Positions 27,001-33,000 of a stretch of 64,000 nt of DNA are shown here, piece by piece. The position numbers were made by a program. Numbering within the stretch: the stretch's first letter is position 1; every line of letters starts with the position of its first letter. The DNA is from Scyliorhinus canicula (Eukaryota): contig NW_024056028.1 of assembly GCF_902713615.1 (NCBI RefSeq), forward strand, positions 1-64,000, in the 5' to 3' direction.

Positions 27001-30000
27001 CACCGAAAGACAAAGTGCAATGACCTCAGGGTAAACAACTGAATGACAACTTTCAATCCATCACAACTAAGACTCCAGGAAAGGCTGCTGATTGGTTGGC
27101 AAGTCGACACTGATTGCCTGAAGATTCCCCTTACAGAAACTAACGGTGAACTATAGATTCCGCCAACGATCAAGTTAATTAAAAACATTCTGCAACTTTT
27201 GTTTGCAGAATTGCTCATAACAGTGAGCTAAGTTTCTGAACGAAGAAGCTGTGAGACAACATTCATTTTTACCTCTGAATTGTACCAGTTGTTACATTGA
27301 GAACGCGTCAGTCAGTATTGGTTGTTGCAACGTGACAGGTGGTGGGATGCGCCACCTGGTGGTAGGTTTGTTCGAATCTCCCTTCAAATTACGTCACAGA
27401 CAGGGTAATGGTCCCAGTTGTCCCGGGGCCTTTGTGTGTTGACCTCAGCAGACAGCGCTGTCAGTCAGCTGCAGCCCATTCAATGTGAAAATTGTGATAT
27501 TCTTTGGCGTATTCAGAAGAAAAGGAAACGAATGTTAACCTCTTTCGTTCCATAGAAATATGTATAAAGTACGAACGTGGAAGCATTGTTCTGGGTCTGA
27601 CAATAAAAGTAGAACAGAAAAGTTCACATTTCGAGGTTGAACAGATACAATATAAGCTCAGCGGATTGAGCTTCTGTTACTTACTGCCCGACCCGATCTC
27701 CAGGAACCACTCCTATTTGTTGTTAACCCACACAGCAGACTGAAAAATTAATAGAAAGTTATCTCATAAGGTTGATGGTTGCGTCGATATATTAGATTGG
27801 TATATCAATCGATTGCTCGATAGATAGATACGTAGATAGACAGACAGATGGAATGAATATTAAAGCTGATAGCATTTTATCTTTTTCAAGAACCCGTAGA
27901 CGGGTGGACTAATGGAGAGACTGGGTGAACCAACCCAAACTTAATACAACTTCTAACGTAATACAAAGGATAGTCGCTTTTATAAATCGATCCTCACGGT
28001 TAATGGGAAACAAGTTCCGGGATGTTCATGCTGCTAACATGTGCAGGTTGATCGCTATGAATATCCAACATGATATTACCGCACTGACACAAACTCAGGG
28101 ATTTCCATCCCAGAAAGCTCTCTCTGACAAGTCCAAGGTTTTTGAAAGTGTCTCTGACGGAATGTCTCCTTTGTGTTTCTATAGCTGTGTTAATCTGGTT
28201 CCTTATTTACTTTAATGGTTGGCTGTGTGTCTGTTTGAGAGATCAGTTTGTGGGTCGATCACTGTTTTTACCGTCTCTGTGTCTATGTTTGTGCTGATTC
28301 TGTGCTGTAAACGAGGCGGCTGGGAGGTAGACATATTCACTTACTTTCACCATTAGCAACTCAGAGTAACATGCACTCAAAAATCATGTCAACGAATGTT
28401 GAACTTTATTGCAGTGTCTGTGCATGTCTGGATGGATGTTTTCGTACATGTTGTTGCACGTGGCCGTGTGTGTTTCCAATAGGCGGTTGCGCTGTCCACA
28501 GGAGGGCGCTCTCTGATCACGTATCAAACATCACCGACCCGTTCCAGAGAGAGCGACCGCTTTAAGACGTGAGGTGGGCGGAGCGAAGAAATCGGATTCG
28601 AACTCATAACATCTCGCTAATTGTTTCATCTCCGCCAATTACAGGGCTGGTCCAGTCAGTGACAACTGTCTGTTTCTGGAGTTCAGATTCGAACCATGGG
28701 GCTGATACTCTACCTGTCTCTGGTTATTGTCCTGATGACAGGTTGGTTATATTGAACCTCTGTACTGAATCCTCCAATTCCCAAATGGGTTCTTATTTCC
28801 ATCTTCGGGTTCTCATCCTCCTCATGTTTCTCCTTCTAACCAGCTTTTTCTTTTCAGGGATGAGTAAGGGAGACTCCGTGTCTCAGGAAGAACAACGAGT
28901 CGATGCAGAAGAGGGTGGAGATTCAGCCATACCCTGCAGTTACTCGGTATCGAGTTCAGCTAGAGACTATGGCCTGTTCTGGTATCGCCAGTATCCACAC
29001 CGAGCTCCGCAGTATCTGCTCAGAGCCGATAGTTATGGGTTTAACCAGACGGCTCCCGGGCTTTGAACACTTCAGCGGGAAACTGAACCCGACACAAAGT
29101 ACTTTTCACTTGTCCCTGACAGATTTGAAGATGACAGACAGCGCCGTGTATTACTGCGCGCTGAGACCCACAGTGAATGAGGGCCCGGCGGGGCTCATAC
29201 ACAAACTGGCGCAATTTCCGTATCAAGAAAGCACAAGGAGTTGCATTGGTACAGATAATAAACGGGACAATCCAGCTCCATCTGAATGGGTTTCCCTCAA
29301 TGAGATCAATGTTTGTCACTGTTGGGCCATTTGACATTTGACGGTCATTATACCCCAGAATCAAATTCCATAATTTCCCGATCCCATTTATATAAACCTG
29401 CCGATCCCGGAGAATCATTTCATCAATCTGTATTTGTGAAACTTCTTGATCAGGTGGTAACCTACCATGCAGCACTTTTTAAAAGTTATCACATTCAGAG
29501 TTGTCACTGTTTAAATTTCCTGGGGTACAAGTGATGACTGACTGAAATCAGTACTTTACCGGTACAAGAGACCCCAGTGGAAGCGCATCTTGGTGAAGAG
29601 TTGGATGACTATTTATCCCGGGTACCTTTAAAACAGTAATTATTAATTATGTTCGTGCACTGAATGGCCTCGTTAACATCTGTGTGTGAGGCTGATTTTA
29701 AAATATTTATTTTATCTTTCACATTTTTGGGGAGGAATATCTACCTCAGGAAAGATGTGAAAGTTGAGGTCGAAGGAAAACGATTTCAACCGAGAAAGAG
29801 ACAGAATGACGGCAATGTGAGGAAGGGAGCGAGAAAGACAAACACACAACCAGGGGTGGAATGTGATTGGAGAGAACCTGCCCTAATAAACGCTCAGCTG
29901 ACGTCAGAGCTGAGAGACCAGCCAATCGTAGTACTGACAAACGCCCCTCAGTTTCCCAAGAATTGATCTGCGTTTACTCTTTGCCACTGGTCTGGGTTTG

Positions 30001-33000
30001 CACTTTGATATGAGACTAGAAGCAACATCATATTTGAAACAGTGTCGCTGTTTACTGTCCAATCAGGAACCATGTGCTCCCTGTGTGCTTTACTGATAAT
30101 AACGGTCTTGCTGCCGGGTGAGTCTGAACTCAAATCCTCAGTGTGTGTTTCATGGGTTATATTTACTCACAGATTTCTGACACATTCTATATCTTGTTAC
30201 AGGAACCAGTGGCCAAGATTCGGTTTCCCAGGAGCCGCCTGAATTACCGGTTCAGGAAGGACAGACAGCAATATTGAACTGCAGTTACAAAGCAAAATAT
30301 ACTGGCAAGACACTTCTCTGGTATATCCAGTATCCAGGGGAAGCTCCGAGATATCTACTGAAGAAATATAGCGCGGGGAAGGGAGAAAGGTCTTCAGATC
30401 TCCCTGACCGGTTTTCTGCTGATTTAGACCAGGATAAGAAAACGGTTCCTTTAAATATCACCGGGGTCCGTGTCTCTGACTCTGCCGTGTATCTCTGTGC
30501 TCTGCGACCCACACTGTTACAGAGGGACTCTCAACCCGTACAATAACCGGCAAGGCACTCTCACCTCGATTCACTAAATTAGATATTTTACCTGGATTGT
30601 GAACTATTTATGTAAACAAAGCAATGTTATAAAGAGCAGCTAGCCCTAATCATTTATTTCTGTAGTGCTGAGCGTGTATCATTGTCTGCTAAATCCCGTT
30701 TTATAATAGTTTCTGTGCTTTGCGAGCAGCTCTCCAAATGCCATCGTCATGACAACACTAAATAGCATCCATCTGTGCCCTGTCTCAAAGATACGCTCAG
30801 TATCAGGACTAACATTCGCTTTCACGCCCTCTCTGTGTCAGAGAGCGACATTTGTTCGTCGTTTAGTTGTTTCGAGACATATGTTGGATTTGGGGATATG
30901 CGGGGAAATAAGGGACATGAAGGTGGTGCAGGAAAGTAGATTCCAGGTCGAACAACTATGATCTGTACAATTGCAGAGCACCCCCATGTGAAGGGGCAAA
31001 TCGTCCACCGCAGATCCTGCTCCTCATCATCTGATGTTCTTGTGTTCAGTTCATTGTTCTGAAAACAGGTGCAGTGGTTCCGGGCTCCTCGCTCTGACGT
31101 AACAAAGAAACGGATCTAATTGGATGAAATGTAGGACACAGGAGCTTTGAGCTGATTGGGTGTCTCCTGCTGGCTCTGTCGGGAATGAACCAATCGGTAG
31201 TGAGGCCGGATATTACTCACATCTTCTGAACTCTGGACTGCAACAATTCAGCTGCAACTCACTGAGTTCAAATCCACTACCATCTCTGAACATGTTGTGT
31301 TACCTTTTACATTTTACAGCTGCAACTCACTTAACTGGTAAGTTCCCAAGGGGCACAATTTCCAGACAGCTCGCGATACTTACATTGTGATCCACACTTA
31401 ACTGTAATACAGTATATACAATTCCATGATTGCATGATTTCTAACAAAGTAATACAAAGTTTAAGCTCGGATTTCTATTTTTTGCAGGTGTTATCGGTGC
31501 AGATTCGGTTTCACAGGAACCGGTTACAGCGACAAAGTTTGAAGGATAATCGATAACTATTGATTTCAGCTATTCGACCACAGCTGATACATATTATTTG
31601 CAATTTTACCGTCAGGACCGGGACGAAGCCCCCATATTCTTGATCTACATTCCTAATTACGGAGATATTTTCCAGAGCAGTGGGCGTGGGGAGTCGATTT
31701 TCTGCATCTTTGGACAGTTCGAAGAGTGAGGGTAATTTCAACATCCGGGAACTGTTGCTGTCTGACAGCGCGGTGTAGTGCTGCGGACTGAGAGACAGCA
31801 ACTAGAGGGAGTCTGGTACAAAATCACTGTCGGAGTGTGACACGGTGAATGGAACTGGGTACAGATTGGGAGATAAACCTGCAGATTGTTGTAATTTGAA
31901 AATATTGAAATAAGTATAAAGCCGCAAGTAATAGTGCTGCATTGGGAAAGTTCTGTTCCATTCCATTCACATTAAATACATTCTAGACAGAATGAAAAGA
32001 AGTGTTTGGAGCATTTGTACCTTTTTGTAAATGAACGATGTTGAGAAAGAAATGTTGAAAATAATACTTAACGATGTGATGTAGCGGTTACAGGAAGTAA
32101 CACAAGTAAATGCAGCCGCAGCAGCAGGTACACAAGCTGGATTCAAAAACCGTTTCTTCCCCGCCGTTACCAGACTTCTGGATGACCTTCTTATGAACTG
32201 AACTGACCTCGTGTGGTGACAAAAGATGATGGTGAAAGACGAGTTTTGTTGTACTGTCGATGAATGCCGCCTGACTTCCTGAGTTGTTGCAGTAATTTCC
32301 CCTTTCGCCCCATAAGTTAGATTGATTTTCGATGGCAATGACAGTATGCTTCGGTTCCTTTCGTGGGGCTCGTTGGTCTAGGGGTATGATTCTCGCTTTG
32401 GTTGTCGGAATTTGCGAGAGGTCCCGGGTTCAAATCCCGGACGAGCCCTTTGATGACGTTTTCCGTTGGTCAAGCAACATGCTTTCTTCATTTCTTTGCG
32501 GCGCAGACGGCGGGATTCATTCACATTGGGTTTGCTTTGAAGCTGAGCTCACACTGCAGGGAACCAAGGCGTTCCCGAGAAAATCGAGAAATTTTGGCAA
32601 AGCTTGTCGATGTGTGGGCATTCACATCTCTATTGACTAATTCTGGTGGATTCAGGCAACTCTCTGTCCGTTTTATTTTATCAGTTCAACAATTTCACAC
32701 TGTGAACTCTCACTTCCCCCTCCACCACCTGTTTATTTCCATCACCTTATTTTCATTCCTTCCATTGATATGTTTTACCCTCAGCATTGCCCCCCCCCCC
32801 CCCCCCCCCCCAGCACATACCATCCTACTTCAGCAATCTGATCCCTGTTTGTAATTGTTCTCTGACGCACTGCTTACCTTTGTTCTGCCCTTAACACATT
32901 CTGGCCTCTTAATGCGCCATCAGCACCTTTCTTAGCCTTGATTAGCCTCATTTACATTCCCTTTTTCTTTCTGTCCCAGACATTTTCGTCATTTTCCATC

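What the first reader, a model, noticed from the sequence alone, without database searches (positions are those of the whole stretch)
28696..31826. TCR V segments whose RSSs face a tRNA/zinc-finger cluster, with no J or C in 64 kb
Seen: three leader-V units within 3.1 kb, all on +, with 23-RSSs pointing right into ~32 kb of tRNAs and ZNF genes, and ~28 kb of V-free DNA to the left. Established: 23-RSS V segments join 12-RSS D or J segments by deletion or inversion depending on orientation. Inference, three options: (a) J-C lies to the right, so rearrangement would excise intact ZNF-A, ZNF-C and the tRNA-Pro gene in T cells; (b) J-C lies to the left and joining is by inversion; (c) this is an orphon V island. 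Any of these is informative for shark TCR locus organisation.
Basis: partly seen in the sequence, partly recalled or inferred. Interest (0 to 1): 0.66.

Follow-up and report, generated by a model that had tools for sequence, protein, structure and literature searches.

The report
Shark TCR alpha/delta-type V gene cluster
This is an ordinary piece of a shark T-cell-receptor V-gene array, with one usable V gene, two broken ones and an inverted relic, lying in repeat-rich DNA that also holds zinc-finger ORFs and mostly degenerate tRNA-like sequences.

Summary
The three leader-plus-V units exist at the stated coordinates on the + strand. They are TCR alpha/delta-type V segments.

- **V2 (30072-30548)** is the only intact one. 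It has an open V exon, a 23-RSS and CRE plus CCAAT motifs upstream.
- **V1** has a good 23-RSS but one frameshift near 29058-29061.
- **V3** has two stops, a frameshift, and has lost Cys23 and Trp41. A good 23-RSS lies 45 nt further on (31841-31879).
- **A fourth V relic**, degenerate and inverted, lies at 27448-27623, so the left flank is not V-free.

No J, 12-RSS or C-domain exon was found in the 64 kb.

Right flank:
- Two zinc-finger ORFs are open and one is broken.
- Three of the five ARAGORN tRNA calls are copies of one SINE head.
- The tRNA-Pro carries an anticodon-loop insertion.

A V cluster far from J-C, with unrelated genes in between, is normal for translocon TCR loci. Trypsinogen genes in TRB and olfactory-receptor genes among TRAV are precedents. 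Deletion, inversion and orphon status cannot be separated inside this window. What decides between deletion and inversion is the relative orientation of J-C, not the side it lies on.

Interest is low. The displaced V3 RSS remains unexplained.

The parts
27448..27623 (-). Degenerate inverted V relic (FR2 and FR3 remnants in two frames, with stops)
   Evidence: A profile built from V1-V3 gives its two best non-self hits here. They are adjacent, colinear and on the same strand: E 0.0079 (profile positions 37-63) and E 0.058 (75-97). The next hit is E 0.94. Four tblastn queries hit the same place. An inverted repeat with V3 FR3 is 23 nt long and 83% complementary (I1).
28696..28741 (+). V1 leader exon (46 nt, ATG, GT donor after it)
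28858..29168 (+). V1 V exon, otherwise complete but with one frameshift near 29058-29061
   Evidence: Cys23, Trp41 and Cys104 are present.
29169..29207 (+). V1 23-RSS (CACAGTG, 23-nt spacer, ACACAAACT)
   Evidence: 2 mismatches. It starts at position 15 counted from the Cys codon at 29155-29157.
29899..29928 (+). V2 promoter motifs: TGACGTCA (CRE) and a CCAAT box
   Evidence: 1 of 5 full CRE sites and 1 of 5 CCAAT-pattern sites in the window lie here, 173 and about 150 nt before the ATG. Function is inferred.
30072..30117 (+). V2 leader exon (46 nt)
   Evidence: The leader resembles that of the Mustelus asterias model P0005.
30203..30509 (+). V2 V exon, open frame, with all conserved V residues
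   Evidence: 102 aa, no stop. (V-set, E 9e-17). (model pLDDT 83.9). (52% identity to a shark V model).
30510..30548 (+). V2 23-RSS (CACACTG, 23-nt spacer, ACAATAACC)
   Evidence: 2 mismatches. It starts at position 15 counted from the Cys codon at 30496-30498.
31292..31337 (+). V3 leader exon (46 nt)
31488..31795 (+). V3 V exon, a pseudogene
   Evidence: It has two stops and one frameshift, with Cys23 changed to Phe and Trp41 changed to Phe.
31841..31879 (+). Displaced 23-RSS-like site, 45 nt beyond the canonical V3 end
   Evidence: 3 mismatches (CACGGTG, 23-nt spacer, AGATAAACC).
32367..32448 (+). tRNA-Pro(TGG)-like gene with an insertion in the anticodon loop
   Evidence: One search gives 49.2 bits, with 14 nt where the model has 4. 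It was missed at the default filters.
33508..34946 (-). Three copies of a repeat unit, each with a truncated tRNA-Val-like piece. A weak tRNA-Arg(ACG)-like sequence lies at 34538-34610.
   Evidence: families D1-D4. (32.8 and 45.6 bits). In one search the Arg-like sequence does not fold better than its shuffles (z -0.58).
42275..43357 (+). ZNF-A: open 360-codon frame with 9 canonical C2H2 fingers
45493..46663 (+). ZNF-B: finger array broken into three frames or pieces
53169..54572 (-). ZNF-C: open 467-codon frame with 16 C2H2 fingers. Further fingers follow the stop.
   Evidence: It is 48-58% identical to ZNF-A.

Best explanation
The window holds a short, dense stretch of the V-gene array of a cartilaginous-fish TCR alpha/delta-type translocon locus. 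It may instead belong to the wider antigen-receptor complex around that locus.

The V units are:
- V2, a germline V gene that looks usable, with promoter motifs, a split leader, an open V exon and a canonical 23-RSS.
- V1, a near-intact neighbour disabled by one frameshift. An assembly indel would look the same.
- V3, a long-dead pseudogene.
- An inverted V relic just upstream of V1.

In thymocytes RAG would pair the V2 23-RSS with the 12-RSS of a distant J-alpha, or of a D-delta. If J-C lies downstream on the same strand, the DNA in between is deleted, including the zinc-finger ORFs and tRNA-like repeats. If J-C is on the other strand, that DNA is inverted.

Shown here: the anatomy of the V units and RSSs, and the absence of J and C within the 64 kb. 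Inferred: use of V2, membership of the main locus, and the mode of joining.
For: V domain and gene structure:
- V-set domain in V2 at E 9e-17.
- 46-nt leader exons with phase-1 introns.
- 23-RSSs at V1 and V2, against a shuffle expectation of 1.05 matches per window.

Alpha-type V end:
- All three V ends show Cys codon, 14 nt, then the heptamer position at +15, with T8 and G9.
[quoted passage not shown] The zebrafish V end is given there as TGTGCTCTGAGGCC with the RSS at position 15 (passages of PMC10322711).
- V2 matches 12 of those 14 nt and V1 matches 11 of 14.
- FR2 reads WYIQYPGEAP / WYRQYPHRAP and the V end reads CALR.

Relatives:
- The closest protein found is a V-only gene model of the shark Mustelus asterias, identical at 53 of 101 positions.
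- The other hit is a seal model that strings several V domains together.

Locus organisation:
- Three divergent V families (34-45% identity) lie 1.2-1.4 kb apart with no J-C nearby. That fits a translocon, not the V-J-C miniclusters of shark Ig.
- Section 6 of PMC12227049 says TCR alpha/delta is in translocon organisation in four elasmobranchs, and that alpha/delta-type V exons also lie scattered between IgH clusters.
Against: - No J, C or conserved flanking gene is in the window, so linkage to the main locus is not shown.
- No expression or rearrangement data could be consulted.
- Only 1 of 4 V elements is open, which would also fit a decaying orphon island.
- The PDB sequence search and the fold search do not separate TCR V-alpha from antibody V domains. 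Top fold hits are VpreB, light-chain and nanobody domains. Among the listed hits the highest identities (39-40%) are to chains of two 'immune receptor complex' entries whose chain type the tool does not state.
- The alpha/delta assignment therefore rests on the V-end and RSS signature and on framework motifs.
Confidence: 0.72

Rival explanations
1. Orphon island: a small block of alpha/delta-type V segments was copied away from the main locus. It lies among repeats and zinc-finger genes, decays, and is not used for rearrangement.
For: - 3 of 4 V elements are defective.
- LINE reverse-transcriptase fragments and SINE copies are dense around the island.
- An opossum TCR V orphon in LINE-like surroundings is described in PMC2275272 (passage).
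- The closest shark relative sits on a record only 64,752 nt long.
Against: - V2 keeps everything a working V needs: an open frame, conserved residues, splice sites, a 23-RSS with the CAC triplet, and CRE plus CCAAT motifs.
- Pseudogene fractions are also substantial inside true loci. PMC2275272 reports 12 of 68 TRAV as pseudogenes in opossum (passage).
Confidence: 0.2
2. The V segments belong to another antigen-receptor locus, such as an Ig light chain, TCR beta or TCR gamma, and not to TCR alpha/delta.
For: Structure and PDB sequence searches rank antibody V domains as high as TCR V domains. V segments of several other receptor classes also carry 23-RSSs (general knowledge, recalled).
Against: - Cartilaginous-fish Ig genes are in V-(D)-J-C miniclusters (PMC12227049, section 6). 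Here there is no J or C within 64 kb.
- The V end with its RSS at +15 and T8G9 is the TRAV signature (PMC10322711).
- The framework is WYxQ, not the WVRQ of heavy-chain V. That comparison is recalled, not tested.
Confidence: 0.04
3. Assembly artefact: the V island and the zinc-finger/tRNA-like stretch are not really adjacent.
For: The region is repeat-rich, and the window has one gap of 323 N at 14854-15176.
Against: The only N run lies 13.5 kb to the left of the V island. Sequence is continuous from 15177 to 64000, across the V units, the tRNA-like repeats and all three ZNF arrays.
Confidence: 0.04

Closest known systems
TRAV/TRDV gene segments of the TCR alpha/delta translocon locus in jawed vertebrates, including elasmobranchs
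   Same: Split leader, V-set exon, 23-RSS directly after the V end, RSS at position 15 from the Cys codon with T8G9, several V families side by side, pseudogenes mixed with functional genes, and J-C far away.
   Different: Linkage to TRAJ/TRAC/TRDC is not shown. Spacing is very tight (1.2-1.4 kb) for a genome this rich in repeats. One relic is inverted.
Non-receptor genes embedded in TCR loci: trypsinogen genes between TRBV and TRBC, and olfactory-receptor genes among the 5' TRAV (PMC2275272, PMC12698447)
   Same: Unrelated genes lie next to V segments, on the side the RSSs point to. They would be lost from one chromosome on deletional joining.
   Different: Here the neighbours are poly-zinc-finger ORFs and tRNA-derived repeats. 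It is not known that J-C lies beyond them.
Teleost TRA/TRD locus with V genes downstream of C in opposite orientation (PMC8559430)
   Same: It is a precedent for option (b): the whole V array joins by inversion and keeps the DNA in between.
   Different: The orientation of J-C relative to these V segments is unknown. The passages I read say nothing on V orientation in sharks.
Germline-joined Ig genes of sharks (PMC2193156, seen only as a search listing with the start of the abstract)
   Same: RAG activity in germ cells can leave joined or partly joined V genes. In V3 the RSS is displaced by 45 nt of extra sequence.
   Different: V3 has no recognisable D or J (no FGXG). The extra 45 nt may be a plain insertion in a pseudogene. 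The precedent concerns Ig, not TCR.

Membership tests
TCR alpha/delta V gene segment (TRAV/TRDV) | Ig V-set domain with Cys23, Trp41 and Cys104 | tested here: met
   V2 matches V-set at E 9e-17, and the residues are visible in the translation. V1 has all three but is frameshifted. V3 has lost Cys23 and Trp41.
TCR alpha/delta V gene segment (TRAV/TRDV) | Split leader: a short leader exon, a phase-1 intron, then the V exon | tested here: met
   All three have 46-nt leader exons with ATG and a GT donor, and an AG acceptor before the V exon. The leader and V exon were analysed exon by exon and never joined.
TCR alpha/delta V gene segment (TRAV/TRDV) | 23-bp-spacer RSS directly 3' of the V exon | tested here: met
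   Met for V1 and V2, with 2 mismatches each. Not met for V3 at the canonical place. A 3-mismatch site lies 45 nt further on.
TCR alpha/delta V gene segment (TRAV/TRDV) | Fish-type TRAV end: RSS at position 15 from the Cys codon, with T8G9 | tested here: met
   Coordinates are read and the criterion is taken from passages of PMC10322711. V1 and V2 meet both points. V3 keeps T8G9 but not the heptamer.
TCR alpha/delta V gene segment (TRAV/TRDV) | Rearranges to TRAJ or TRDD/TRDJ and is expressed with TRAC or TRDC | not testable with these tools
TCR alpha/delta V gene segment (TRAV/TRDV) | Lies in the TRA/TRD locus (linked to J-C or to flanking marker genes) | tested here: inconclusive
   The window holds no J, C or marker-gene domain. 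64 kb is too short to decide.
V orphon | V segment located outside the main locus and not used | not testable with these tools
   This needs the scaffold and expression data.
   All four stems are intact and the score is 49.2 bits, but the loop region has 14 nt where the model has 4. This could be an intron or a disabling insertion.

The most novel reading that the evidence does not exclude
V3 records a RAG event in the germ line of a TCR gene. Its own heptamer is gone, 45 nt of foreign sequence follow the V end, and a good 23-RSS sits behind them. A V-D or V-D-D join in a delta-type V would leave exactly this, because it keeps the 3' 23-RSS of the D. That would extend shark germline joining, known for Ig genes, to a TCR V segment.
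Probability: 0.06. Interest if true: 0.55.

Novelty: new member of a known kind. Interest (0 to 1): 0.2.

Why it matters
It matters little beyond annotation.
- It adds one likely functional V segment and three defective ones of the alpha/delta type to a shark V repertoire.
- It shows a dense V island set in repeat-rich DNA that carries zinc-finger ORFs.
- That layout agrees with the published picture of elasmobranch alpha/delta-type V exons spread over a large antigen-receptor region.
- The inverted relic and the displaced V3 RSS are small hints of local rearrangement history. They would be worth a look once the whole locus is annotated.

Tried and rejected
Translations:
- Searches were my first translations and were in the wrong frame or start. 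Searches replaced them. remain useful because they show the second frames of V1 and V3.

Protein searches with V2:
- The near-length search found nothing: 1 candidate, none scored.
- The 'longer' search gave 2 proteins from 85 candidates, neither named as a TCR.

Alpha versus antibody V:
- The PDB sequence search is dominated by multi-domain scFv chains whose scores add up over domains, so it does not rank V types.
- The Foldseek search of the V2 model confirms a V-type Ig fold but does not separate TCR from antibody V domains.

Search for J:
- The 6 [FW]GxG[TS] hits were inspected. None has a heptamer upstream or J-like residues after it.

Search for a second minus-strand V:
- I looked behind the CRE/CCAAT pair at about 27396-27320. 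Only LINE-like frames are there.

tRNA idea:
- I considered that the ARAGORN Tyr/Phe/Asn calls were real tRNA genes marking a conserved tRNA cluster near the TCR locus. I rejected this because the three share one SINE-like sequence.

Pfam side hits:
- ALKBH8_N, ASTN_2_hairpin, DNA_pol_E_B, Endothelin and AIRC each match one ORF. I did not trace them to their ORFs and took them as LINE-related or chance.
- One search listed only 25 of 39 families, so I repeated the scan without the zinc-finger ORFs.

Papers:
- PMC7909615, a review on shark Ig/TCR loci, is not held.

- No vertebrate genome collection was on hand. Genome contigs holds only bacteria and archaea and was not used.
- The scaffold context therefore stayed unchecked.
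Full report
**What is at the coordinates**

Reading 28400-32200 shows three V units on the + strand, all built the same way.
- Each has a 46-nt leader exon that begins with ATG: 28696-28741, 30072-30117 and 31292-31337. The leaders translate as MGLILYLSLVIVLMT, MCSLCALLIITVLLP and MLCYLLHFTAATHLT.
- Each leader is followed by a GT...AG intron of 116, 85 or 150 nt.
- The V exons start at 28858, 30203 and 31488.
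- I analysed leader and V exons exon by exon. The joined leader-plus-V model was left out of every search.

**V2**

The V2 exon translates without a stop (102 aa).
- It matches Pfam V-set at E 9e-17 and 61.7 bits, against a cut-off of 26.
- An AlphaFold model built from a 6-row alignment has mean pLDDT 83.9 and an all-beta V fold.

**V1**

V1 is complete except for one frameshift.
- The front reads in one frame as far as TGA 29064-29066.
- The back (FEHFSGKLNPTQSTFHLSLTDLKMTDSAVYYCALR) reads in another frame.
- In the alignment with V2 no residue is missing at the junction.
- So it carries a single extra base near 29058-29061. This is either a real pseudogene or an assembly indel.

**V3**

V3 is clearly dead.
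- It has TAA at 31547-31549, Phe in place of Cys23 and Phe in place of Trp41.
- It has a frameshift near 31700 and TAG at 31776-31778.

**Relationship of the three**

The three V units are only 34-45% identical to each other at protein level. They therefore represent three V families, not recent copies. Only short nucleotide repeats link them (D1 and D2).

**Recombination signals**

A search for heptamer, 23 nt, nonamer with up to 3 mismatches gives 10 matches. The expectation from shuffles is 1.05, and 0 of 100 shuffles reached 10.
- Two matches, with 2 mismatches each, abut V1 (29169-29207) and V2 (30510-30548). Both keep the CAC triplet.
- V3 has CAGCAAC at the canonical place (31796-31802) and nothing like a nonamer 23 nt later.
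- A 3-mismatch site (CACGGTG, 23 nt, AGATAAACC) lies at 31841-31879, 45 nt further on.
- The other 7 matches are not next to any V-like sequence.
- Taking those 7 as background, the chance of a stray site within 100 nt downstream of V3 on the + strand is about 0.005 (my arithmetic). The displaced site is therefore probably the old V3 signal.
- The 45 nt in between contain a faintly J-like string but no FGXG. I cannot explain them (note).

**Which receptor**

In V1 and V2 the Cys codon is followed by 14 nt and the heptamer starts at position 15. V3 keeps that frame, with CAGCAAC at position 15. Positions 8-9 are TG in all three.
- That paper gives the zebrafish V end as TGTGCTCTGAGGCC with the RSS at position 15.
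- V2 (TGTGCTCTGCGACC) matches 12 of 14 nt and V1 matches 11 of 14.
- The frameworks (WYIQYPGEAP, WYRQYPHRAP, V end CALR) fit V-alpha/delta. That reading rests on general knowledge.

Database searches add little.
- The near-length protein search found nothing.
- The 'longer' search found 2 proteins among 85 candidates.
- One is a V-only gene model of the shark Mustelus asterias, identical at 53 of 101 positions and with a similar leader.
- The other is a seal model that strings several V domains together.
- The PDB sequence search and the fold search confirm a V domain but do not separate TCR from antibody V.

**Is the rest of the window free of V, J and C?**

Not quite free of V.
- tblastn with six V pieces and a profile of V1-V3 run against 2781 six-frame segments both point to the minus strand at 27448-27623.
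- The two best non-self profile hits are E 0.0079 (FR2 part) and E 0.058 (FR3 part). They are adjacent and colinear. The next hit is E 0.94.
- A 23-nt inverted repeat with V3 FR3 supports this (I1).
- This is a degenerate V relic in the opposite orientation, about 1 kb before V1, with stops and no RSS.

No other V-like sequence was found.

For J:
- There are no 12-RSS matches at 3 or fewer mismatches.
- None of the 6 [FW]GxG[TS] hits has J context.

For C:
- 150 stop-to-stop ORFs of 79 aa or more, and 150 of 62-78 aa, were scanned against Pfam without a single Ig-domain hit.
- These scans left out the 10 ORFs of 60 aa or more with finger motifs, three V ORFs and one RT ORF already scanned earlier. 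They also left out the 36 shortest ORFs of the 346 that are 60 aa or longer.
- A first scan of the 150 longest ORFs gave V-set in 3 members, all from V1 and V2. Only 25 of its 39 families were listed.

**The right flank**

Zinc fingers:
- ZNF-A (42275-43357, +) is an open 360-codon frame with 9 canonical fingers.
- ZNF-C (53169-54572, -) is an open 467-codon frame with 16 fingers, and more fingers follow its stop.
- ZNF-B (45493-46663, +) is broken into pieces.
- ZNF-A and ZNF-C are 48-58% identical.
- Open frames are all I can show. Expression is unknown.

tRNA-like sequences:
- ARAGORN tRNAs.
- The 'Phe', 'Tyr' and 'Asn' calls at 16567, 39440 and 63700 are three copies of one SINE-like head.
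- tRNA-Pro(TGG) at 32367-32448 has all its stems and scores 49.2 bits, but it has 14 nt where the model has 4 in the anticodon loop. It was missed at the default filters.
- The Arg(ACG)-like sequence scores 45.6 bits and does not fold better than its shuffles.
- Three truncated Val-like pieces belong to a repeated unit at 33508-34946.
- LINE reverse-transcriptase fragments occur throughout.

The only gap is 323 N at 14854-15176. I left it alone. The V island and the zinc-finger stretch are continuous in this assembly.

**How it most likely works**

V2 has what a working V needs, including TGACGTCA and a CCAAT box 173 and about 150 nt before its ATG. V3 has a similar pair. Promoter function is inferred.

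By the 12/23 rule, the V2 23-RSS would pair with a 12-RSS of a J-alpha or D-delta.
- Convergent signals delete the DNA in between.
- Signals pointing the same way invert it.

So the strand of J-C decides the outcome, not its side. A plus-strand J-C to the left could not give a chromosomal coding joint.

**Comparison with what is known**

- PMC12227049 (abstract, section 6 and passages) states that TCR alpha/delta is in translocon organisation in four elasmobranchs. It also states that alpha/delta-type V exons lie scattered between IgH clusters.
- PMC5931798 (passages) shows that the nurse-shark alpha locus was unassembled in 2018.
- Teleost TRA/TRD V genes join by inversion (PMC8559430, passages).
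- Trypsinogen genes lie between TRBV and TRBC, and OR genes lie among TRAV (PMC2275272; PMC12698447).
- A V cluster far from J-C, with unrelated genes in the way, is therefore the normal state of such loci.
- One search for shark, zinc finger and TCR V segments together (13 papers, 10 listed) turned up none whose title or abstract start concerns this particular neighbourhood. That is weak evidence that it is not in print.

**Verdict**

This is an ordinary stretch of a shark alpha/delta-type V array, or less likely an orphon island. It contains one good V gene. The three options cannot be resolved here.

Noticed in passing
window 31796-31879: The V3 heptamer is missing at the canonical place. 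45 nt of unexplained sequence, with a faint S-G-T-K / I-T-V string, separate the V end from a good 23-RSS-like site.
   Followed up: partly
window 27320-27396 (minus strand): A TGACGTAA motif and a CCAAT box, spaced as before V2 and V3, lie just 3' of the inverted V relic. No V exon follows them; only LINE-like frames do.
   Followed up: yes
window 23531-23664: A 134-nt near-perfect palindrome scores equally on both strands against several plant and insect miRNA models, all below their cut-offs (best 55.1 bits against 75). It is probably a hairpin repeat or a MITE-like element.
   Followed up: no
window 4400-5700: A GC-rich block (59% GC over 4001-6000) forms an inverted duplication. The same long ORF appears on both strands, with four TGACGTCA sites.
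   Followed up: no
window 18893-19735: A tandem repeat gives long open frames on both strands with a periodic peptide pattern of about 30 residues. It has no Pfam match.
   Followed up: no
window 16567-16647, 39440-39524, 63700-63785: Three copies of one tRNA-derived SINE-like head were called by ARAGORN as tRNA-Phe, tRNA-Tyr and tRNA-Asn.
   Followed up: yes
window 13119-14375 and other sites (10146, 24510, 35076, 49923, 51568, 63288): LINE reverse-transcriptase fragments (RVT_1 at 13119-13616) and many copies of the same RT tail motif are scattered on both strands.
   Followed up: partly
P0005 (Mustelus asterias model): The automatic gene model reads from the V exon straight through the RSS into downstream DNA, and it also holds part of a second V. 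It is a V-only artefact model and not a receptor chain.
   Followed up: partly
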